NCBI GenBank assembly: GCA_050287845.1
Contig: JBNKCR010000129.1
Coordinates: 7,364 to 71,363, forward strand
From: Polyangia bacterium
GTDB taxonomy: Bacteria; Myxococcota_A; Polyangia; JAAYKL01
DNA length: 64,000 nucleotides
Direction: 5' to 3'
Made by a program: the position numbers and the translations under genes. Below the pieces are notes generated by a model. It did not search any database, had not been told where the DNA came from, and saw only the letters and a program-made list of their open reading frames with translations. Positions 5,269 to 63,116 of this stretch are shown here, piece after piece; the first letter of the stretch is position 1; the number at the start of each line of letters is the position of its first letter.

Positions 5269-6060
5269 GTGACAGTGAAAAAATACGCCTGTGTCAGTTG
5301 TTTTATTTGTGTATTTCTGTTTTGTGGTATGGGTGCCATGGGTAAACAGGCCAAACCATCCGCCAGGTCTGCGGACGAGGTTCTGCAACTGGTGGACGAC
5401 AACCTCCTGAAGATGGAAGACTCCACGTACACGGTTGAACTGACAGTGGAACGGTCCGGCAAAATCGTTAAAACGATGGAATTCGAGGTGAAGCTCAAGG
5501 GACTTTTCAAAAAGCATATCACCTTCCTTGCGCCAGGGGATCTGGCCGGTACCGCCATCGTAACTACGGAGGATAAAATCACGTATGTGTTTATGCCGGC
5601 GTATCGCAAGGTCCGCCGTGTGGCATCCCATGTGAACAATCAGGGGTTCATGGGAACGGATGTTTCCGGCGAGGAACTGGGAACCGCAGCGTTGTCGAAG
5701 GGATGGAAGGGGAGCATTATTGAAGAAACGGACCAGCACTGGATTTTGAAACTGGTTCCTGAAAAAAGCACTGAGACTACCTATGCCAAAATGATTGTCA
5801 CGGTTTCAAAGCAATGGGGCGGGGTAGTGAAAATAGATTCCTACAACGGGGATGGCAAAAAAGTGAAAACACAGGAAAGGTCTAACTGGGAGTCATTCAA
5901 ATCCTCTGATGGCAAGGTAACGGTTACAATACCTACAGAATTTGTATTCACCGATCATCTGACCGGTTCACAGACACGAATGACGTTTCTGGGGTGTCAG
6001 GTGAATCAGAATATTCCGGACAGCCTGTTTACCCGACGTGCGCTGATGCGTGGCAAATAG
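5269..6060 (+). CDS. LolA-like outer-membrane lipoprotein-sorting family protein
   Basis: GTG start (alternative GTG at 5275) preceded by GAGGAG; N-terminal signal peptide; about 260 aa beta-rich protein of the type usually encoded beside RND/MMPL exporters. Confidence 0.6.
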   Translation: MTVKKYACVSCFICVFLFCGMGAMGKQAKPSARSADEVLQLVDDNLLKMEDSTYTVELTVERSGKIVKTMEFEVKLKGLFKKHITFLAPGDLAGTAIVTTEDKITYVFMPAYRKVRRVASHVNNQGFMGTDVSGEELGTAALSKGWKGSIIEETDQHWILKLVPEKSTETTYAKMIVTVSKQWGGVVKIDSYNGDGKKVKTQERSNWESFKSSDGKVTVTIPTEFVFTDHLTGSQTRMTFLGCQVNQNIPDSLFTRRALMRGK

Positions 6061-6068
6061 GAGAAAAG

Positions 6069-6902
6069 ATGAAGCCAGCTAAACGATATATACTTGAACT
6101 GTGGACGATTCTCGCGGTGCTGTGTTGTGGACTTCCGCTGCTGGCTGTATCCACAGATATACTCCTTCTGCTTCCGGGGTTTCCGGGAACGCCTGCACAG
6201 GCACAGCCATATGTGGACAGAATGTTGCGATATCTGGAGTCCGAATTGTCTCTGGCCGAAGGGAGCATGAACGGTGTGTTTCTGACAGATGGAACACAGG
6301 CATCTGAAAAACTCACGTCGGTGAAACCCGGACTTGCCCTTCTGGGGCCGTCTGTATACGCCGCACACGCCGGTAAAATGAAGATGAAAGTGATTGCCCG
6401 GATAACCGCCAATGGCCGTGGCGAGCAGCAGTATCACGTTATTGTAAAAAAAGAAGGTCCGACATCGCTGCTTTCGTTGTCCGGTAAGGTGAGTGGGACG
6501 GTGGTGCACGATGAAAAATACGTGCTGAATGTACTGCTGGACGCAAAGGTGCCCACCGGACAACTGACTTTTGAACCCAACCCGCGACCACTGCGCGCGC
6601 TGCGTAGTTTGGCCGCTGGTAAGGTTGATGCCGTCATTGTCGACGATGAAACACTCAGGTATATGGAAGAACTGGACTTCGCGGCTTCGTTGAAGAAAAT
6701 TTACACCACCGATGCGGTTCCCGCCCCATGCGTGGTGGTGATGAACGATGGACTCTCCATGGAAAAACAGCTGAAAAAAGCATTGATAGGTCTGTGCGGG
6801 GGAGAATCCGGAAAGGCGTTGTGCGAATCTCTGACTATATCCTCCATCCGTGCCGCCGGGGATGGCGACTATAAAGCGCTTTTGAGGCGATATAACCGGT
6901 AG
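6069..6902 (+). CDS. periplasmic solute-binding-like protein (PhnD/SsuA-like), function unknown
   Basis: ATG 8 nt after the LolA-like stop with AGGAGAAAAG RBS; signal peptide (ILELWTILAVLCCGLPLLAV); motifs DAVIVDDETLRYMEE and PAPCVVVMNDG resemble type-2 periplasmic binding folds. Longer ORF from 5994 rejected. Confidence 0.55.
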   Translation: MKPAKRYILELWTILAVLCCGLPLLAVSTDILLLLPGFPGTPAQAQPYVDRMLRYLESELSLAEGSMNGVFLTDGTQASEKLTSVKPGLALLGPSVYAAHAGKMKMKVIARITANGRGEQQYHVIVKKEGPTSLLSLSGKVSGTVVHDEKYVLNVLLDAKVPTGQLTFEPNPRPLRALRSLAAGKVDAVIVDDETLRYMEELDFAASLKKIYTTDAVPAPCVVVMNDGLSMEKQLKKALIGLCGGESGKALCESLTISSIRAAGDGDYKALLRRYNR

Positions 6903-55859: not shown

Positions 55860-58800
55860 ATGTTGGCATATGGAATAGATACCATCAACGAAGCTTTAAA
55901 ACGAAATGCAGAGCAGTATGGCGACGACATTGCGTTCCGATTCATCCAGGGCGGTACAGATGAAAAGAGTATCACCTACGCCGAACTGTATTCGAGAGCG
56001 CTGCAGATAGCTTCGCAGTTTCGATTGGCAGAAATCCCGTTACAGTCGAAGGTATTGATTCTGTATCCGTCCTCCCTTGAATACATCTGCACGCTGTTCG
56101 GTTGTTTTCTGGCGGGGACAACCGCGATACCGGCGTATCCACCGGTGTTCAACCGGTCACTCTCCGCCCTGCGGAATATCGTTCTCGATTCCGGAGCAAC
56201 CATCGCCTGTGTGGAATCGGCGATTCGGGAGCAGTTGCAACCGTTGCTTCACACGGAGTCCTGGCTCGAAAATCTGAACTGGATGACCCCGGAAGAAGAT
56301 GTTGACGACGCCGTCGATACGAGCGCCCTGCCAGATGTGGCGCCGGAAGACCTGGCCGTTCTGCAATACACGTCCGGTTCCACCAGTGCCCCCAAAGGCG
56401 TGATGTTGTCCCATCGAAATCTGGTGGCCAATGCCCATATGCTCATGGCGCGTGTGCAGGCGACCGCCCGGGTAGACAGAATGGTCGCCTGGCTGCCCCC
56501 GTTTCACGATATGGGTCTCATCGGGAGTATTCTGGCGCCGGTATGCGCCCGGGTGGAATCCACCCTGATGCCCCCCAGTTCGTTTATCAAAAAGCCCCTT
56601 CGCTGGCTGGAAGCGATTTCCAGATATCGGGGAACCATCACTGCGGCGCCGGATTTCGCGTACGAGATGTGTGTGCATCGCACCCCTCCGAAGCAGCGGG
56701 AACTGGTGGATCTCTCCAGCCTGCGCGTGGCCCTGAACGGGGCGGAGAAGGTTCGCGAAGACACGCTGAACCTGTTCTGTGATGCGTTTAAATCGCAGGG
56801 ATTCTCAATGTCGGCATTTGCGCCGTCCTACGGGTTGGCGGAAGCGACACTGGGGGTTGCCATCAAACGGAATGGCAATACGCCGCTTGCCCGCCGATTT
56901 GATACGGAGAAACTGAAGGAAGGGTTGGCGGTCCCGGTCGGCGGCGATGACGGCACATCCCTGGTCACCTGCGGCAAGCCCCTCGATGGCGTGGATGTGA
57001 AAATTGTTTCCATTGAAACGCGGCAAGTCGTTACACCCGGGATGATTGGCGAAATTTGGGTGCGCAGCGCCAGCGTGTCCAGGGGATACTGGCAGAAAAT
57101 CGAGTTGAGTCGTGAGATTTTTGAAGGAACGCTGCCTTCGGATGGCAGACCGGATGAGAAGTATCTGGCCACCGGTGATTTGGGATTCCTGTATGACAAT
57201 GAATTGTATGTGACCGGCCGCCACAAGGATCTGATCATTGTGCTGGGGGTCAATCATTATCCGGAAGACATCGAGAAAACAGTTGAATCCGCCCATCCCG
57301 CCATCCGGCAACATACTGTCATTGCGTTTGCGCTGCCGATAAACGGGACCGAGCGCGTGGTGGTGACCACTGAGATTGCCCGGGGCAATGAATTCGCCCT
57401 CGACGACATCATTGGTGCCATCCGCAATGCCATCAGCACCCGACATCAGTTGCCGGTGTACGATATTGTGCTGCTTCCCCAGGGAGGACAGGTGGCCAGG
57501 ACCACCAGCGGGAAGCCACGGCGCAGCGCGTCCCGGCAGAAGTACGAAGCCAACGGGTTTACGCCGCTGGGAAGCAGTCAGATGCAGCAGGGGACAGAAT
57601 CGGGTTCTCCGGCGGAAGAAATTGCAGTGGTCCAGCGGGTCATGGCGGAAGTGCTTTCGGTGGACCGGGTTTCAGCAGACGACGACTTCTTTGCCCTGGG
57701 CGGACATTCGCTCATCGCCACCCAGCTGGCCTCCCGGTTGGCATCTCTCTGGGAAAGAGAGGTGCCCGTGCGGGTGATATTCGAGCGGCCGACGGCTGCC
57801 CGGCTGGCGGGGGTGCGGCACTCGCTGCCGGTGACCGGAAAACGGAATCAGATACAGAAGGTGGACCGAAGCGGTCCGCTGGTGCTTTCCCACTCTCAGG
57901 AGCGAATGTGGCTGTTGCACCAGCTGGAACCGGATGGCACGGCATACAATGTTTCCGGTGCGGTAGTGGTGGATGGTCCGTTCAACGTGGTCCATTGCCA
58001 GACGGCGATGCAGCGCCTGGTTGACCGCCATGAAACCCTGCGAACCACTTTCCCTTCCGAAGGCGGTACGGTTTCTCCCATGATTCACTCCAATGTGAAA
58101 ATCAACGTTGTTTGTGAAGACCTGTCGAGCGCCGATGACCCGCTGGAACAGGCCGCACGCAAGGGGTCGCTGCTGGCCCACAGGCCGTTTGATCTGGCGA
58201 GGGATTTGCTGATACGGGTTGCCATATTCAAAGTTGCCGACGTTCGGCATGCCATTGTCATTTCGATGCATCATGTCATCTCCGATGCATGGTCTCTGGG
58301 CGTGGTGCTCAAAGAAATCATGGAAGACTACCTGGCATTGAACCGGGGCGAAGTTCCGACTTCGGTGGTGCCGGACATTCAGTATGTGGATTACGCGGCC
58401 TGGTTCCGGCCCGTCGTGGAAAGTGAACGGTTCAATGATGAACTGTCGTATTGGCGGAACCGACTGCAGGGCACACCGAATCTTGAACTGCCCACCGATC
58501 GGTCCCCGGGTTCGAATGTGAGTTCAGCAGGGGAAATGGAACGACTGCAAATTTCGGAAACCCTGCGCAATGAAATTGAGGATTTGGCCCATCAACATGG
58601 CGCCACGCCATTCATGGTGATGCTGCTGGCCTTTGAAACCCTGTTGTACCGGTACAGCCGGCAAACGGATTTTGCCATCGGGGTGCCCATTGCCAACCGC
58701 AATCATCATCAGTCCGAACATCTGGTTGGCACCCTGGTCAATACCCTGGCTTTCCGCGCGAATCTGAATCCAAAGGAGGCATTCAGTGCGCAACTGGAAC

Positions 58801-61775
58801 GCATCCGGGAAGACTGCCTCGATGCGTATGCCCATCAGCAGTTGCCGTTTGAGCGGCTGGTGCAGGAACTGCATCTCGAACGGCGAGCGGGACAGACGCC
58901 CCTGGTGCAGGTGATGTTTGACTACGCCAATCCGCCCATGCCAAAGGCCCGGACCGACGAATTTTCGCTATCGCCCCTGTTCATTTCGAGACGGGCTGCC
59001 CAGTTTGATTTGAGTCTGCTCACCCTGGATTCCGAAATCGGATTCGTGACAGCGATGGAATATAGGAGCGATTTATTCGATGCGTCCACCGTGCGGCGCA
59101 TGCTGGACCATTACCTGCGTATTCTGAAATTGGCGGTCACCAATCCCACTCAGCGTCTTTGTGACATGGCGTTTCTTTCTCAGGATGAAATCCGGGAAAT
59201 CGTTGCTCTCGGCGCCAGCACAAATATGAAACCGGTTTCATCGGATACCACGGTCGCGCGCATTGTGGCTGGTGCCGATGGGGTGACAGGTAAAATGGCG
59301 GTGACAGATGAAGTCGATGGGATCACGTACGGCAGGTTGATGGAACTGACTCGTACGGCTGCCGCAAAGATGGCTGCGGCCAACGTGGCAGCGGGAAGCC
59401 GGGTGGCAGTATGTCTGGAACGGTCACGGCTGATGCCGGCGGCACTGCTGGCGGTGCACTGGCTGGATGCGGCGTACGTACCCATCGACCCGCATTTCCC
59501 GGCTGAACGGGTGAGATACATGCTGTCGGAGACCACGCCCGCGGTGGTGGTCTGCGATGAGGCCACCACCGCCGCGTATCCGGAGTTGGCGCAATACCCG
59601 TGTCTGCGGATTGAAGACGTGGTACAGAGCGAGCCCCTCACGCCACCACCTCTGACCACCCGACCCGATTCCACGGCGTATATTATTTTTACTTCCGGCT
59701 CCACGGGAAAACCAAAAGGAGTGGAGATTCCCCAGCGCGCCATGCTGAACTTTCTGGAGTCCATGGCCCATACACCGGGAATGACTGCCACCGATCGCCT
59801 GCTGTCCGTCACCACCATATCGTTTGACATTTCAGTGCTCGAAATCTTTTTACCGCTGCTCTGTCAGGCCGAAGTGAAGATTGTCGGCAGCGATACGGCA
59901 TTGAACGCCCAGAAACTGCGGGGAATACTGGAAGAGACTGATGTCACCGTGATGCAGGCCACGCCGGTCACCTGGCGGATGCTCATTGAATCCGGATGGG
60001 CAGGCAGCGATTTGTTGACGGTACTCTGCGGCGGTGAAGCAATGCCCGCTGATCTGGCGGAACAGTTGGTTACTCGCAGTAAAGCCCTGTGGAATATGTA
60101 TGGGCCTACGGAAACCACCGTGTGGTCCACGGTTCAGCAAATCAGAACAAAGGAAGCCATTGATATTGGCCGGTCCATTGATCGGACCGCAGTGTATATT
60201 CTGGATGCCACAAAACAGCTTTGTCCCATTGGTGTCACTGGCGAAATCTATATCGGCGGCGCCGGCGTGGCCAAAGGATATTTCAAGCGTCCGGAACTCA
60301 CGCAGGAGCGATTTGTCAAAGACCCCTTTACCCCCGGATTCGGCGATCGCATGTATGGTACCGGCGATCTTGGACGCATGCGATCGGATGGCACATTCGA
60401 ATGTTTCGGTCGTCTGGATCATCAGGTGAAAATTCGTGGATACCGCATTGAGCTGGGTGAAATTGAAGTTGCGCTGAAACAATTGCCCGAAGTGGCGGAT
60501 GCGGTGGTCATTCCCTGGGAGGTAACCCCCGGGGATGCGCGTCTTTCCGCCTATATTATCGCAGAAGGGACGGCGCCAGAGAGCGAGCAACTGCGAAATG
60601 TACTTCGAAAATCGCTGCCGGGATACATGGTGCCCAGCTGGTTCACGGTGATGGCCCAGTTCCCCACCACGCCCAACGGTAAAATTGACCGCAAGGCACT
60701 GCCTGGCCCCGATGCGAAACTGGAAGTGCAGAGCCCGCTGAGAGTCGCCCCGCGGAGTGAGACAGAGAAAGCGCTGGCCGTCCTGTGGGCCCGGACCCTG
60801 GATGTGACCCATCCGAGTATTACCGACAACTTCTTCGATGTGGGACACTCGCTGCTGGCTGCCCGGTTGTTCGGGCAAATCGAAAAAGAGATGGGGGTTT
60901 CGCTCCCCCTGTCGGTGCTGTTTTCGCATCCCACCATTGAGATGCTGTCCGCATACATCGACGGACAGGTCGATGAACTGGGGTATTACGAACTGAAATA
61001 TGTGGTGCCCATCAAACCCCGGGGGCGCGCCACGCCGGTGTTCTGTATCCACGGCGCCGGGGGGAACGTGCTCAATTTTGAGTCCCTCGCAAGGCATATC
61101 GACGCGGATTGTCCACTGTATGCCATCCAGGCCCGTGGGGTGCATGGCACGGAAACGCCCTTTGACACCATTGAAAAGACGGCGTCGGCCTATCTGGAAG
61201 AAGTCATGGAGATTCAACCGACCGGTCCATACATTATCATGGGATACTGCGCCGGTGGGGTTGTGGCATTTGAAATGGCCAGGCAGATTCAGTTGAAAGG
61301 TGACATGGTGCGGGATTTGATTCTGATAGATACGTTCCGTCCCGGGGTTGGCTATACCATTCCCTCATTCGGCAAACGGGTGCTTCGCGCGGCGACCAAA
61401 GGTCCGGGGCATTTCTTCCGACACAGTTTCTCCAGGCTGCATCGAATTAAAGAGGACAACGCCAATCTGAAGGCGCTGAACAGGCACCTGAGCGCCGGCG
61501 AGCCGGTGCCCCACGAACTGAGGACCCTTTGGCTGACCCGGGCGTTTCTGGACTCCGTTGAAAAGTACCAGCTGCCGGTGTACGATGGGGCACTCACCAT
61601 CTTTGAAGCGGCGGATGTTCCTTCGGATCTGGTGTGCAGTGAGCCCAATCTGGGATGGGATGGATACGCTGCGTCCATCAGTTGCACCAAAGTGCCGGGA
61701 GGCCACCTCACCCTCACCGACGAACCCAACGCAAAAGTCCTGGCCACCGAACTCTGCAACCGCCTCCACCGCTGA
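55860..61775 (+). CDS. non-ribosomal peptide synthetase, FAAL - carrier - C - A - carrier - TE (single amino-acid module with lipid-loading domain)
   Basis: 1971 aa. FAAL-like domain aa 1-565 (TSGSTSAPKGV). Carrier GGHSL (Ser617). C domain HHVISDAWS (aa 804-812). A domain core motifs FTSGSTGKPKGV, FDIS, NMYGPTE, GEIYIGGAGVAKGY, YGTGDL, GRLDHQVKIRGYRIELGEIE, LPGYMVP, PNGKIDRKAL. Second carrier FFDVGHSL (Ser1664). TE with IHGAGGN and GYCAG. Confidence 0.9.
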   Translation: MLAYGIDTINEALKRNAEQYGDDIAFRFIQGGTDEKSITYAELYSRALQIASQFRLAEIPLQSKVLILYPSSLEYICTLFGCFLAGTTAIPAYPPVFNRSLSALRNIVLDSGATIACVESAIREQLQPLLHTESWLENLNWMTPEEDVDDAVDTSALPDVAPEDLAVLQYTSGSTSAPKGVMLSHRNLVANAHMLMARVQATARVDRMVAWLPPFHDMGLIGSILAPVCARVESTLMPPSSFIKKPLRWLEAISRYRGTITAAPDFAYEMCVHRTPPKQRELVDLSSLRVALNGAEKVREDTLNLFCDAFKSQGFSMSAFAPSYGLAEATLGVAIKRNGNTPLARRFDTEKLKEGLAVPVGGDDGTSLVTCGKPLDGVDVKIVSIETRQVVTPGMIGEIWVRSASVSRGYWQKIELSREIFEGTLPSDGRPDEKYLATGDLGFLYDNELYVTGRHKDLIIVLGVNHYPEDIEKTVESAHPAIRQHTVIAFALPINGTERVVVTTEIARGNEFALDDIIGAIRNAISTRHQLPVYDIVLLPQGGQVARTTSGKPRRSASRQKYEANGFTPLGSSQMQQGTESGSPAEEIAVVQRVMAEVLSVDRVSADDDFFALGGHSLIATQLASRLASLWEREVPVRVIFERPTAARLAGVRHSLPVTGKRNQIQKVDRSGPLVLSHSQERMWLLHQLEPDGTAYNVSGAVVVDGPFNVVHCQTAMQRLVDRHETLRTTFPSEGGTVSPMIHSNVKINVVCEDLSSADDPLEQAARKGSLLAHRPFDLARDLLIRVAIFKVADVRHAIVISMHHVISDAWSLGVVLKEIMEDYLALNRGEVPTSVVPDIQYVDYAAWFRPVVESERFNDELSYWRNRLQGTPNLELPTDRSPGSNVSSAGEMERLQISETLRNEIEDLAHQHGATPFMVMLLAFETLLYRYSRQTDFAIGVPIANRNHHQSEHLVGTLVNTLAFRANLNPKEAFSAQLERIREDCLDAYAHQQLPFERLVQELHLERRAGQTPLVQVMFDYANPPMPKARTDEFSLSPLFISRRAAQFDLSLLTLDSEIGFVTAMEYRSDLFDASTVRRMLDHYLRILKLAVTNPTQRLCDMAFLSQDEIREIVALGASTNMKPVSSDTTVARIVAGADGVTGKMAVTDEVDGITYGRLMELTRTAAAKMAAANVAAGSRVAVCLERSRLMPAALLAVHWLDAAYVPIDPHFPAERVRYMLSETTPAVVVCDEATTAAYPELAQYPCLRIEDVVQSEPLTPPPLTTRPDSTAYIIFTSGSTGKPKGVEIPQRAMLNFLESMAHTPGMTATDRLLSVTTISFDISVLEIFLPLLCQAEVKIVGSDTALNAQKLRGILEETDVTVMQATPVTWRMLIESGWAGSDLLTVLCGGEAMPADLAEQLVTRSKALWNMYGPTETTVWSTVQQIRTKEAIDIGRSIDRTAVYILDATKQLCPIGVTGEIYIGGAGVAKGYFKRPELTQERFVKDPFTPGFGDRMYGTGDLGRMRSDGTFECFGRLDHQVKIRGYRIELGEIEVALKQLPEVADAVVIPWEVTPGDARLSAYIIAEGTAPESEQLRNVLRKSLPGYMVPSWFTVMAQFPTTPNGKIDRKALPGPDAKLEVQSPLRVAPRSETEKALAVLWARTLDVTHPSITDNFFDVGHSLLAARLFGQIEKEMGVSLPLSVLFSHPTIEMLSAYIDGQVDELGYYELKYVVPIKPRGRATPVFCIHGAGGNVLNFESLARHIDADCPLYAIQARGVHGTETPFDTIEKTASAYLEEVMEIQPTGPYIIMGYCAGGVVAFEMARQIQLKGDMVRDLILIDTFRPGVGYTIPSFGKRVLRAATKGPGHFFRHSFSRLHRIKEDNANLKALNRHLSAGEPVPHELRTLWLTRAFLDSVEKYQLPVYDGALTIFEAADVPSDLVCSEPNLGWDGYAASISCTKVPGGHLTLTDEPNAKVLATELCNRLHR

Positions 61776-61799
61776 ATCACTGAATTCGAACAGGAAGAC

Positions 61800-61860
61800 A
61801 TCGGATACGCCTGGTTGGCGTATCCCCGGGATCGCTGGGCTCCAGTCCTGTTTTCTGCAG
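61800..61860 (+). terminator. candidate intrinsic terminator after the NRPS gene
   Basis: Perfect 9-bp stem GGATACGCC/GGCGTATCC with 5-nt loop about 28 nt after the stop, and a short T run (tgttttctg) about 25 nt further on; the T tract is not adjacent, so weak. Confidence 0.3.
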
Positions 61861-62094
61861 TGCACATTGATGTGTAGAGGAGGGGAAGACGATAATGACG
61901 GTCATTGCTTTCTGATATCGGCGCCGTTTTGCACTGCTGCTTCGGATAGATCATGATAAATTTTTAAACATGTTTCTGAAATTGGTGGCGATGAAGATGC
62001 CTCCAGAACACTCCGCCATTGTTTCAGCAATTTCTCCATCTCAGGACAGTGATCATTATAAAATTGCCACCTTGCTTCCGCTGCATCCCGCCCG

Positions 62095-62365
62095 ACTTCG
62101 TTGCTCGTCGGTCGCATACCCCGGTATGTTCCGCTCCTCGCGCCTTGCCGGTCCGGCGCAGCAAATGCCATGTTGGAAATTTTATTTCGACCACTGTCCT
62201 TAGGTCTTGCTCATAAATAACTCTGCCATTCATGCAACAAACTTGACATCCCTGCTGCGTTGCTCCTCCTCGCCATACCGCCAGTATGACTCGTTGTCGC
62301 GCCTTGCCGGATATGTCATCCTGTTACCTGAATCAACAGATTTATTTATGAGCAAACCCTTAGAC
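62095..62365. repeat. intergenic composite repeat: about 55-bp imperfect direct repeat plus about 20-bp inverted repeat (ttgctcataaataa core)
   Basis: Copy A about 62099-62155 and copy B about 62258-62312 share cgttgctc...cgcgccttgccgg; inverted copies of (c)ttgctcataaataa at about 62204-62220 and 62341-62361. Confidence 0.4.
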
Positions 62366-62444
62366 AAAATTAAATCTGAAGTTTAATTTTGTCTGATTTT
62401 GTTTTGGGGAACAGGAGATCTCCCCTGCTGGATGCATAAACCAT

Positions 62445-63116
62445 TCAATTCAGAATATGGGGCAAAACGAGGCGCAGGTCTTTGTGTGGGATTTCCACGT
62501 CGCAGAGGTTGGCGAGGGTTTGGGATTTGCAGTTGAAGGCAATGGAGAGGCCGGCGGATTTGGCAATCCAGATGTCGTTTTCGTTGTCGCCCACAAATAC
62601 GGCCTGTTCTGTGGCGATGCCCGCCTTTTCGCACAGATGACGCAACCCGTCGGCTTTGGCTTCCACGTCAAACGGGGTGTGAATGCCCCCGTCAATATCG
62701 CCGGATGCATTGAAATGGATGCGGTTGATGAGCACGTCGTCGAAGGCGAAATGGGGAAACAGCACATCGAGCACCGTCTGAATGGAACCGGACACCACGG
62801 CCACCGCCAGTCCCGCAGCCTTCAGGGTCTTAAGGGTTTCCATGGCGCCGCACATGGGTTTCAGTGTGCGACACATCTGAATGATACCGTTGCGGTTGGC
62901 CCCGGCTGCCCGAAGCAGTTTTAAATCGTGGCGAAACCATTCTTCGTAGGTGATGGCGCCGGAAAAATAGTCGTCGTAGGCCTGCTGTCGTTCTTTGGGG
63001 TCGGTATGGAACCCTTCGTGCAGGGTTTTCCAGATGTACACCGTATCGTCAACCAGGGTGCCGTCCAGATCGAAACATACAAGGGAATAGGGGAGCGGGA
63101 ATTCAGATGTGTTCAC
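62445..63116 (-). CDS. HAD-superfamily hydrolase (phosphatase-like)
   Basis: 223 aa; motif I LVCFDLDGTLVDD near the N-terminus; motif IV region VFVGDNENDIWIAKSAG. Confidence 0.75.
   Translation of the reverse strand: MNTSEFPLPYSLVCFDLDGTLVDDTVYIWKTLHEGFHTDPKERQQAYDDYFSGAITYEEWFRHDLKLLRAAGANRNGIIQMCRTLKPMCGAMETLKTLKAAGLAVAVVSGSIQTVLDVLFPHFAFDDVLINRIHFNASGDIDGGIHTPFDVEAKADGLRHLCEKAGIATEQAVFVGDNENDIWIAKSAGLSIAFNCKSQTLANLCDVEIPHKDLRLVLPHILN

What the first reader, a model, noticed from the sequence alone, without database searches (positions are those of the whole stretch)
62095..62365. Composite direct-plus-inverted repeat element between the NRPS and the HAD gene
Two imperfect copies of an about 55-bp sequence (cgttgctc...cgcgccttgccgg) are each followed by a copy of ttgctcataaataa, the second in inverted orientation. 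The layout resembles a small MITE-like element or a duplicated structured RNA or regulatory module in the 670-bp gap downstream of the synthetase.
Basis: seen in the sequence. Interest (0 to 1): 0.4.

Follow-up and report, generated by a model that had tools for sequence, protein, structure and literature searches.

The report
Two tandem hairpin mini-transposons (MITEs)
The repeat is two neighbouring copies of a roughly 157-base non-coding jumping element that folds into a long hairpin. The family occurs in many bacterial phyla, and its centre is unusually well conserved and looks like a structured RNA or single-stranded DNA motif.

Summary
The gap between the NRPS and HAD genes holds two complete tandem elements: unit 1 (62044-62199) and unit 2 (62203-62359). 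Each is a full-length imperfect hairpin with its own terminal inverted repeats, and both are bracketed by TAA triplets on the minus strand.

A related metagenome contig with the same HAD and NRPS-end context carries a single TAA at exactly this spot. Both units are therefore insertions with target duplication.

A pattern taken from the shared core found at least 118 loci, against about 1.4 expected by chance. These span Acidobacteriota, Verrucomicrobiota, Gemmatimonadota, Planctomycetota, Myxococcota, Pseudomonadota and others, often with several copies per genome and up to 98% identity within a genome.

Across 122 copies the hairpin shows strong covariation (93% paired against 67% in shuffles). 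G-U pairs outnumber A-C by 248 to 59, which marks the window's minus strand as the folding strand.

The central module (CAAGGCGC, three tandem G.A steps, GAGCAACGC) is better conserved than the termini. No Rfam family matches, and no transposase partner was found.

Verdict: a MITE of IS5/Harbinger-like type, from an apparently undescribed cross-phylum family with a structured core. Interest is moderate.

The parts
62360..62362 (-). HAD-proximal copy of the target triplet (TAA on the minus strand, TTA on the plus strand).
   Evidence: Read directly from the sequence. The empty-site contig L122 has a single TAA here.
62203..62359 (-). Unit 2: a 157-nt hairpin element. On the minus strand it reads GGGTTTGCTCATAAATAA ... 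TTATTTATGAGCAAGACC.
   Evidence: Inverted repeat I2, fold, covariance-model hit at 62228-62334(-) with 43.7 bits and E 5e-9, end analysis.
62337..62359 (-). Unit 2 terminal inverted repeat, 5' arm on the folding strand.
   Evidence: (I2).
62250..62310 (-). Unit 2 conserved core. On the minus strand it reads CCGGCAAGGCGCGA, then the apical hairpin CAUAC..GUAUG, then GAGCAACG.
   Evidence: (D1, D7).
62203..62225 (-). Unit 2 terminal inverted repeat, 3' arm on the folding strand.
   Evidence: (I2).
62200..62202 (-). Middle TAA triplet, shared by the two units.
   Evidence: Sequence and comparison with L122.
62044..62199 (-). Unit 1: a 156-nt hairpin element. On the minus strand it reads GGACAGTGGTCGAAATAAAAT ... 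ATTTTATAATGATCACTGTCC.
   Evidence: Inverted repeat I1, fold, covariance-model hit at 62065-62179(-) with 71.6 bits and E 3e-16, end analysis.
62091..62151 (-). Unit 1 conserved core.
   Evidence: (D1, D7).
62041..62043 (-). Third, degenerate copy of the target triplet (TGA on the minus strand). It is followed by GATG.., which is also what follows the single TAA in the empty site.

Best explanation
The region holds two independent, adjacent insertions of a non-autonomous foldback transposable element (a MITE), 156 and 157 nt long. Each copy consists of terminal inverted repeats that begin GG(G/A), a long imperfect stem, and a conserved apical module. Each is bracketed by a duplicated TAA.

Shown: both units are insertions relative to an orthologous empty site. 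They belong to a family of about 157-160-nt hairpins present in many copies and many phyla. The flanking triplets are direct repeats. The hairpin is maintained by compensatory changes out to the tips. One strand, the window's minus strand (the sense strand of the HAD gene), is the one that folds.

Inferred: the elements are moved in trans by a DDE transposase of the IS5 / PIF-Harbinger type. That type makes a 3-nt staggered cut at T-W-A, and here the second insertion would have re-used the TAA regenerated by the first. The conserved core (CAAGGCGC, three tandem G.A/A.G steps, apical stem-loop, GAGCAACGC) probably acts in single-stranded form, as RNA or ssDNA, as a protein-recognition or stability module needed for the element's own propagation.

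At this locus the pair is most likely a passenger in a convergent 3' gap. If HAD transcription reads through, it adds two very stable hairpins to the HAD 3' UTR.
For: Empty site. Contig L122 (HAD 87% identical) aligns to window 62470-62359, then 62036-62012, then 61781-61690. It has one TAA where the window has TAA-unit2-TAA-unit1-TGA.

Family size and spread. They come from at least 10 phylum-level groups. The covariance model found 122 hits in 0.8 Mb, with up to 3 copies per 8 kb. Copies within one genome are 94-98% identical in several MAGs. One copy sits on a plasmid of the cultured Desulfosarcina sp. BuS5, flanked by TTA.

Target duplication. 17 of 36 type-1 copies have identical flanking triplets. 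Where both flanks are TWA, 16 are direct and 1 is inverted (p = 2.7e-4). Element length clusters at 157-158 nt.

Structure. 93.1% of pair cells are paired against 67.5% in shuffles. The covariation score is 0.569 against 0.160 (0 of 500 shuffles reach it), and slid controls give 0.04-0.09. G-U/U-G pairs outnumber A-C/C-A by 248 to 59. In the terminal repeats the same asymmetry is 28 to 8, and the variable segment matches the copy's own other arm at 0.91 but other copies at only 0.41.

Non-coding. The only ORF across the region has no Pfam match and is absent from the empty site.
Against: No autonomous element with matching ends and no IS5-like transposase was found in 0.95 Mb of fetched loci, in the window, or on the BuS5 plasmid. 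The termini share only a GAATAAG stretch with the E. coli IS5 inverted repeat.

Contrary to a textbook MITE, the centre is better conserved than the termini, and the two termini of each copy co-vary. That pattern fits a mechanism that needs the folded single strand. It does not fit simple recognition of double-stranded ends.

The flank evidence cannot fully separate a 3-nt duplication from a 2-nt (TA) one. Copy number in the source genome itself is unknown beyond these two copies in 64 kb. Transcription was not testable.
Confidence: 0.75

Rival explanations
1. The elements are mobile hairpins moved as a folded single strand by a non-DDE enzyme, in the manner of REPIN/RAYT or IS200/IS605-derived elements. 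In that case they are not classical MITEs, and the conserved core is the enzyme's recognition hairpin.
For: Compensatory evolution runs along the whole hairpin, including the termini. There is clear strand asymmetry. The core is better conserved than the ends. Verrucomicrobial variants carry one core in each orientation, so that either strand offers a 'sense' core. No DDE partner was found.
Against: Flanking triplets are direct repeats whatever their sequence (TAA/TAA, TTA/TTA, even TTT/TTT), and the empty site holds one copy. This is the signature of a staggered cut. RAYT and IS200/IS605 elements make no duplication. There is no GTAG/CGTC tag, and the size is 4-8 times that of a REP. The ends are true terminal inverted repeats, which differs from the subterminal hairpins of IS200/IS605 elements.
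Confidence: 0.15
2. The two units are duplicated genes for a host-beneficial structured non-coding RNA, or a cis-regulatory 3' UTR module of the HAD gene, and not selfish DNA.
For: Covariation is strong, the internal loops are conserved, and G-U and G.A pairs make sense on one strand only. In the window that strand is the HAD sense strand, downstream of the stop codon.
Against: There is no conserved gene neighbourhood. Many genomes hold several copies, some near-identical. The units have terminal inverted repeats plus duplicated triplets, and the orthologous locus lacks them. In co-directional gene contexts the folding strand is more often antisense (17) than sense (5), by crude gene calls. 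No Rfam family matches.
Confidence: 0.07
3. The pattern is a chance or local tandem duplication of intergenic DNA, or a degraded protein-coding remnant (the 89-aa ORF at 61902-62171 on the minus strand).
For: Only two copies occur in the 64-kb window. An ORF does span unit 1.
Against: A model built from other phyla hits both units at E 3e-16 and 5e-9. The outer stems of the two units differ in sequence, yet each pairs with its own partner arm. The ORF has no Pfam match and is interrupted in the empty site. The two units read the shared core in different frames.
Confidence: 0.02

Closest known systems
Prokaryotic MITEs (for example Correia, ERIC and Chunjie; reviewed in PMC10969869)
   Same: Small, non-coding and multi-copy. 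They have terminal inverted repeats and target-site duplications, are mostly intergenic, fold into hairpins, and can insert next to or into one another.
   Different: Families in that review are each reported from a particular genus, family or similar group. This one spans many phyla. Its centre is better conserved than its termini, and the two termini of each copy co-vary.
Tourist/mPing-type MITEs and their PIF/Harbinger-IS5 (PHIS) transposases. The 3-bp duplications of canonical Harbinger elements, and the 0-, 2- or 3-bp duplications of their relatives, are stated in PMC12730594; the TWA target and the GG.. termini are from my own knowledge.
   Same: Three-nucleotide TAA/TTA duplication, termini starting GG, and a size of about 150-450 nt. 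A subgroup flanked by CTAG/TTAG is reminiscent of the 4-bp YTAR target of the IS5 group (my knowledge).
   Different: No partner transposase was identified here. Similarity to the E. coli IS5 inverted repeat is limited to GAATAAG. The full-length hairpin with a conserved core is not a feature of those elements.
REPINs / REP elements mobilised by RAYT transposases (PMC2817692, PMC3733652)
   Same: Intergenic and high in copy number, with a hairpin kept by compensatory changes and single-strand logic.
   Different: REPs are 20-40 nt, carry a GTAG or CGTC tag, and make no target duplication. The elements here are about 157 nt with direct-repeat flanks.
MRSC-65-2 'mobile/repeat sequence candidate' (Breaker laboratory, NAR 2024, PMC11109978)
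   Same: A single long stem with strong covariation, dozens of copies per genome and diverse phyla. It is judged selfish and may act as DNA.
   Different: That motif is defined by a conserved UYCCGG repeat. Only 15 of 116 copies here (sense strand) and 19 of 116 (antisense) contain it, and not at a fixed place. Its alignment was not available for direct comparison.

Membership tests
Prokaryotic MITE | Small size and no coding capacity | tested here: met
   Units are 156 and 157 nt, and the family mode is 157-158 nt. The only spanning ORF has no Pfam match and is absent from the empty site.
Prokaryotic MITE | Terminal inverted repeats | tested here: met
   (I1: 35 nt, 77% complementary; I2: 27 nt, 85%). 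Across the family, the outer 24 nt of the two arms of a copy are 88% identical in inverted comparison.
Prokaryotic MITE | Target-site duplication, shown by comparing a filled site with an empty one | tested here: met
   L122 has a single TAA where the window has TAA-unit2-TAA-unit1-TGA. Family-wide, direct TWA flanks outnumber inverted ones 16 to 1.
Prokaryotic MITE | Multiple dispersed copies in one genome | tested here: met
   Met for other carriers: for example, five contigs of one Acidobacteriota MAG and three sites on one Pseudomonadales chromosome at 97-98% identity. For the source genome only two copies in 64 kb are visible.
Prokaryotic MITE | An autonomous IS with matching ends | tested here: inconclusive
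   None was found in about 0.95 Mb of loci, in the window, or on the BuS5 plasmid. Whole carrier genomes could not be scanned.
IS5 / PIF-Harbinger-derived element | 2-4-nt TA-centred duplication (TWA or YTAR) | tested here: met
   TAA/TTA flank type-1 ends. CTAG/TTAG flank type-2 ends.
IS5 / PIF-Harbinger-derived element | Ends similar to a known IS5-family IS, and a cognate DDE transposase | tested here: inconclusive
   The E. coli IS5 inverted repeat GGAAGGTGCGAATAAG shares only GG.. and GAATAAG with the element ends. tblastn with InsH found nothing significant in the loci.
REP / REPIN (RAYT-mobilised) | 20-40-nt palindromes with a GTAG/CGTC tag and no target duplication | tested here: not met
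   The elements are about 157 nt, their ends start GG(G/A) or GTGTCC/GCAGYCC, and their flanks are direct repeats. Association with RAYT genes was not tested.
IS200/IS605-derived PATE | Subterminal hairpins at each end, and insertion 3' of a fixed tetranucleotide without duplication | tested here: not met
   The two ends pair with each other and do not fold on themselves. The duplicated triplet varies between copies: TAA, TTA, TTT.
Any Rfam 15 RNA family | Covariance-model match | tested here: not met
   No relevant hit at E up to 10 on the window region or on a canonical copy, and none at gathering score on 12 loci.
MRSC-65-2 motif (PMC11109978) | Conserved UYCCGG sequence repeat in a single long covarying stem | tested here: not met
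   The long covarying stem is present. UYCCGG occurs in only 15 of 116 copies (sense) or 19 of 116 (antisense), at no fixed position. The published alignment could not be compared.
Structured non-coding RNA (generic) | Expression as a discrete RNA | not testable with these tools
   No transcriptome data. Only the indirect strand asymmetry is available.

The most novel reading that the evidence does not exclude
The conserved apical module may be a functional single-strand motif that the element needs in order to move or persist. The module is CAAGGCGC, then three tandem sheared G.A steps separated by one and two Watson-Crick pairs, then a covarying stem-loop, then GAGCAACGC. If it is needed, these elements would represent a hybrid mode of mobility: hairpin-dependent like REPINs and IS200/IS605 elements, yet producing a target duplication like a DDE transposon. 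The same module has been carried for a long time across more than ten phyla on termini that have diverged. The verrucomicrobial Y-shaped form, which places one core on each strand, would be an adaptation to this strand dependence.
Probability: 0.3. Interest if true: 0.8.

Novelty: new variant of a known kind. Interest (0 to 1): 0.5.

Why it matters
First, it settles the local question: the odd repeat next to the NRPS gene is selfish DNA. It is not a regulator of the synthetase or of the HAD gene.

Second, the family it belongs to appears undescribed. It is absent from Rfam 15, and nothing matching it appears in the 2024 review of prokaryotic MITEs. It is not identifiable with the one comparable published motif. 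Yet it is abundant in soil and sediment lineages that are mostly known from metagenomes.

Third, its centre behaves like a conserved structured RNA or ssDNA motif while its ends behave like transposon termini. This makes it a tractable case for asking whether some bacterial MITEs need a folded single strand to move.

Practically, such elements break short-read assemblies; a Logan contig ends inside unit 2. They also generate false ORFs and false 'structured RNA' calls.

Tried and rejected
- Rfam search of the window region, of a canonical copy and of 12 loci: nothing relevant.
- Coding hypothesis: the ORFs across the units are in different frames, have no Pfam match, and are absent from the empty site.
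- Neighbour-gene enrichment within 2.5 kb either side of 118 loci: every large cluster was a spurious ORF running through the element itself or low-complexity high-GC sequence.
- Search for longer elements bounded by the same ends in the fetched loci: the candidates contained ordinary genes and no transposase.
- Search for a split core (5' half without 3' half), as expected if a transposase gene sat in the apical loop: 119 of 121 occurrences are intact, and the other two are point mutants.
- BuS5 plasmid scanned for further ends matching its copy: none. Its annotated transposases are of the IS4, IS3 and Tn3 families.
- tblastn with E. coli IS5 InsH against all loci and the window: no significant hit.
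- Viral contig scan for the core: zero hits. Plasmid collection: one hit only.
- Relatives at 72-80% HAD identity have different downstream genes, so they are uninformative as empty sites.
- Orientation relative to neighbouring genes, by crude frame-composition gene calls: preference for convergent gaps, but no sense bias that would support a 3' UTR function.
- sigma-54 and sigma-70 promoter readings of the core, and a twister-sister resemblance recalled from memory: not supported by inspection or by Rfam.
- Identity with the published MRSC-65-2 motif: its UYCCGG repeat is not a feature here.
- The metagenome scan was not used. No pattern could separate a parent IS from the far more numerous small copies.

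Full report
**What is in the sequence.** The 670-nt gap lies between a convergent NRPS gene (55860-61775, plus strand; A-C-A-PCP-TE domains) and a HAD-family phosphatase gene (62445-63116, minus strand). It contains a direct repeat with 159-nt spacing: 62091-62151 and 62250-62310, 76% identical, including an exact 14-mer. Each repeat copy sits at the centre of its own long inverted repeat: 62040-62074 / 62169-62203 for the first and 62199-62225 / 62337-62363 for the second. The region is therefore two tandem units of about 157 nt, each an imperfect hairpin from end to end. The outer stems of the two units differ in sequence, but each pairs with its own partner arm. The minus strand folds much better than the plus strand: -138.7 kcal/mol (z -9.1) against -102.8 kcal/mol (z -6.1).

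**It is a member of a very large family.** I scanned one genome per species with the two loop sequences shared by the units: CGTTGCTC, a 20-45 nt gap, then TCGCGCCTTGCCGG. I estimate about 1.4 matches by chance for 22 specified bases in 596 Gb. The record titles name many groups:
- Acidobacteriota (Vicinamibacterales, Thermoanaerobaculia, Holophagales, Terriglobia)
- Verrucomicrobiota
- Gemmatimonadota
- Planctomycetota
- Myxococcota
- Pseudomonadota
- Actinomycetota
- candidate Eisenbacteria, Krumholzibacteriia and Binatia
- 'Deltaproteobacteria'

Some assignments of short MAG contigs may be binning errors. The distinct subfamilies on chromosome-scale contigs are not. Laid side by side, the hits show an apical hairpin and flanking stems whose sequences change while pairing is kept. 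Folding representatives shows hairpins of about 160-190 nt in every group.

A covariance model was built from 20 Acidobacteria-type copies. It hits the window only at 62065-62179(-) (71.6 bits, E 3e-16) and 62228-62334(-) (43.7 bits, E 5e-9). It finds 122 copies in 0.8 Mb of fetched loci, several loci holding two or three, and 26 more matches in a further 145 kb. Copies within one genome reach 94-98% identity in several assemblies, which indicates recent spread. The window's two units are only 66% identical to each other, so they come from different subfamilies. A single copy lies on a plasmid of the cultured Desulfosarcina sp. BuS5. None was found in viral contigs. No Rfam 15 family matches.

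**It is an insertion.** The HAD protein's closest relative outside its own cluster (87% identity) is encoded on a 1.3-kb JGI metagenome contig, L122, with the same arrangement: the HAD 3' end facing the NRPS thioesterase 3' end. L122 aligns in three blocks:
- to window 62470-62359 (96 of 112 identical)
- then directly to 62036-62012 (23 of 25)
- then to 61781-61690 (86 of 92)

On the HAD-sense strand, L122 reads ..ctattgtt-TAA-gatg... The window reads ..ttttgtc-TAA-[GGGTTTGC..GCAAGACC]-TAA-[GGACAGTGG..CACTGTCC]-TGA-gatg... One triplet in the empty site has therefore become three triplets around two elements. This is the expected result of two insertions, each duplicating the target, with one later A-to-G change. 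More distant relatives have other genes downstream and no copies.

**Ends and target across the family.** Extending each hairpin outward gives a median length of 165 nt including flanks. With ends defined as GG(G/A)..., lengths cluster at 157-158 nt. 'Type-1' ends, which include both window units and the BuS5 copy, read GG(G/A)YYYG, then six variable bases, then (G/A)AATAA, and are flanked by TAA or TTA. Of 36 such copies, 17 have identical triplets on both sides. When both flanks are T-W-A, 16 are direct repeats and 1 is inverted (p = 2.7e-4), and one copy has TTT/TTT. 'Type-2' ends (GTGTCCTG.., GCAGYCCGTGG..) are flanked by CTAG or TTAG.

A TA-centred target of 2-4 nt fits the IS5 / PIF-Harbinger superfamily. 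PMC12730594 documents the 3-bp duplications of canonical Harbinger elements, the 0-, 2- or 3-bp duplications of their relatives, and their kinship with the bacterial IS5 family. The specific TWA and YTAR targets are from my own knowledge. I could not find the partner. No longer element with these ends and no IS5-like transposase turned up in the loci, the window or the BuS5 plasmid. The E. coli IS5 inverted repeat shares only GG.. and GAATAAG with the element ends.

**The hairpin is maintained, and on one strand.** On the model-based alignment of 122 copies:
- 93.1% of pair cells form standard pairs, against 67.5% in shuffles.
- 26 of 30 pairs show double changes.
- The covariation score is 0.569 against 0.160, and no shuffle of 500 reaches it.
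- Sliding the partners by 1-3 columns drops the score to 0.04-0.09.

These counts lean towards the model's structure and do not correct for relatedness, but the effect is large. G-U plus U-G cells number 248 against 59 A-C plus C-A. Independently of the model, in the termini the differences between the two arms of a copy are of G-U type 28 times and of A-C type 8 times. The variable segment of the terminus (positions 8-14) is 91% identical to the copy's own other arm but 41% identical to other copies. So the two ends of each copy evolve together. Recognition of double-stranded ends by a transposase does not explain that; selection on a folded single strand does.

**The conserved core.** The 22 bases used for the scan are conserved by ascertainment, so they are set aside here. 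The secondary copies found only by the model, and the diverged verrucomicrobial partner copies, still keep CAAGGCGCGA and GAGCAACGC. Between these two sequences, read on the folding strand, lies GC|GA|S|GA|NN|GA|stem-loop|GA|NN|GA|S'|GA|GC. S and S' covary (G-C in 66 copies, C-G in 44). The GA dinucleotides face each other as tandem G.A/A.G steps (column counts). The BuS5 copy replaces the first two steps with Watson-Crick pairs (GAAAG/CUUUC), which confirms that these positions form a helix. On the opposite strand the same positions would be C.T mismatches, again pointing to one folding strand. Many subfamilies share a second conserved asymmetric loop (GAGGCGCC opposite GGGAUGCAUC). Verrucomicrobial members are Y-shaped elements of about 290 nt. 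One outer stem encloses two core hairpins in opposite orientation, so each strand carries one 'sense' core.

**What I conclude, and how sure I am.**
- I regard it as established (about 0.9) that the two units are insertions of a multi-copy mobile hairpin element.
- Calling them MITEs moved by an IS5/Harbinger-like DDE transposase is the best-supported mechanism (about 0.55-0.6 on its own). It rests on the duplications and the terminal repeats, and no partner has been identified.
- I think it likely (about 0.6) that the core works in single-stranded form. Its actual role is unknown. The obvious candidates are protein recognition during transposition, processing or stability of read-through RNA, or protection of the palindrome.
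- At this locus I see no sign of a regulatory role. The elements sit 82 nt past the HAD stop codon in a convergent gap. That is also the commonest context in the family: 18 convergent against 3 divergent by crude gene calls. In co-directional contexts the folding strand is more often antisense (17) than sense (5).

**Comparison with known things.** The elements meet four of the five defining features of a prokaryotic MITE; the fifth, a cognate IS, is unresolved. They differ from the families in the 2024 review (PMC10969869), each of which is reported from a particular genus, family or similar group. Here the spread is cross-phylum, the centre is better conserved than the ends, and the ends co-vary. 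They share hairpin compensation with REPINs but fail the REP definition on size, tag and lack of duplication. The nearest published analogue in kind is the Breaker laboratory's MRSC-65-2 'mobile/repeat sequence candidate' (PMC11109978): one long covarying stem, dozens of copies per genome and diverse phyla. Its stated hallmark, a UYCCGG repeat, is not a feature here, so I do not equate the two. I therefore rate this as a new variant of a known kind, of moderate interest.

Noticed in passing
window 61782-62011: About 230 nt between the NRPS stop codon and the flank shared with the empty-site contig have no counterpart in L122, which has 9 nt there. The segment gives no covariance-model hit and has no obvious terminal repeats. 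It contains a terminator-like hairpin at 61834-61846 (plus strand). This looks like a separate, unexplained indel.
   Followed up: partly
window 62362-62394: A perfect 13-bp inverted repeat (AGACAAAATTAAA / TTTAATTTTGTCT) lies between the HAD stop codon and unit 2. Its last base is the T of the TAA target. The same hairpin is imperfect in the empty-site contig, and no T-run follows it on the HAD strand.
   Followed up: partly
L001 6570-6681 (equivalent to window 62444-62333): A Logan assembly contig with an identical HAD gene ends about 30 nt inside unit 2. This looks like an assembly break caused by the repeat.
   Followed up: no
L024 4590-4960, and similarly L007, L040, L058, L064, L088, L090, L094-L096, L118, L119: Verrucomicrobial members are Y-shaped composites of about 290 nt. 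An outer stem flanked by CTAG encloses two core hairpins in opposite orientation (fold -169 kcal/mol, z -11.4).
   Followed up: partly
L002 5879-5955: A truncated copy, consisting of a terminus plus the 5' half of the hairpin broken inside the core, overlaps the 3' end of a minus-strand ORF (5954-6454). Decayed fragments of the family therefore exist.
   Followed up: no
window 61902-62171 (minus strand): An 89-aa ORF with an ATG start runs through the left arm and core of unit 1. It has no Pfam match and cannot exist in the empty-site relative, so gene callers would predict it falsely.
   Followed up: yes
L120 6001-6167 (NZ_CP087953.1:100042-100208): The only copy found in the plasmid collection lies in an unannotated gap of a conjugative-type plasmid of the cultured Desulfosarcina sp. 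BuS5. This offers an experimentally accessible host.
   Followed up: partly
L106 1231-1531: A Gemmatimonadota locus holds two tandem copies 174 nt apart, like the window's pair. Gemmatimonadota-type copies also carry an extra short insert, sometimes GCGAAGC, in the 3' strand of the internal loop.
   Followed up: no
L123 / L124 and L121 (relatives with 72-80% HAD identity): The gene order TrkA, GcvT, GcvH, GcvP, hydrolase, HAD is seen upstream in L001 and L123; L121 and L124 retain the hydrolase-HAD end. The gene downstream of HAD is an NRPS only in the window and in L122; the other relatives have OmpA or another gene there. The NRPS cluster therefore abuts a variable junction.
   Followed up: no
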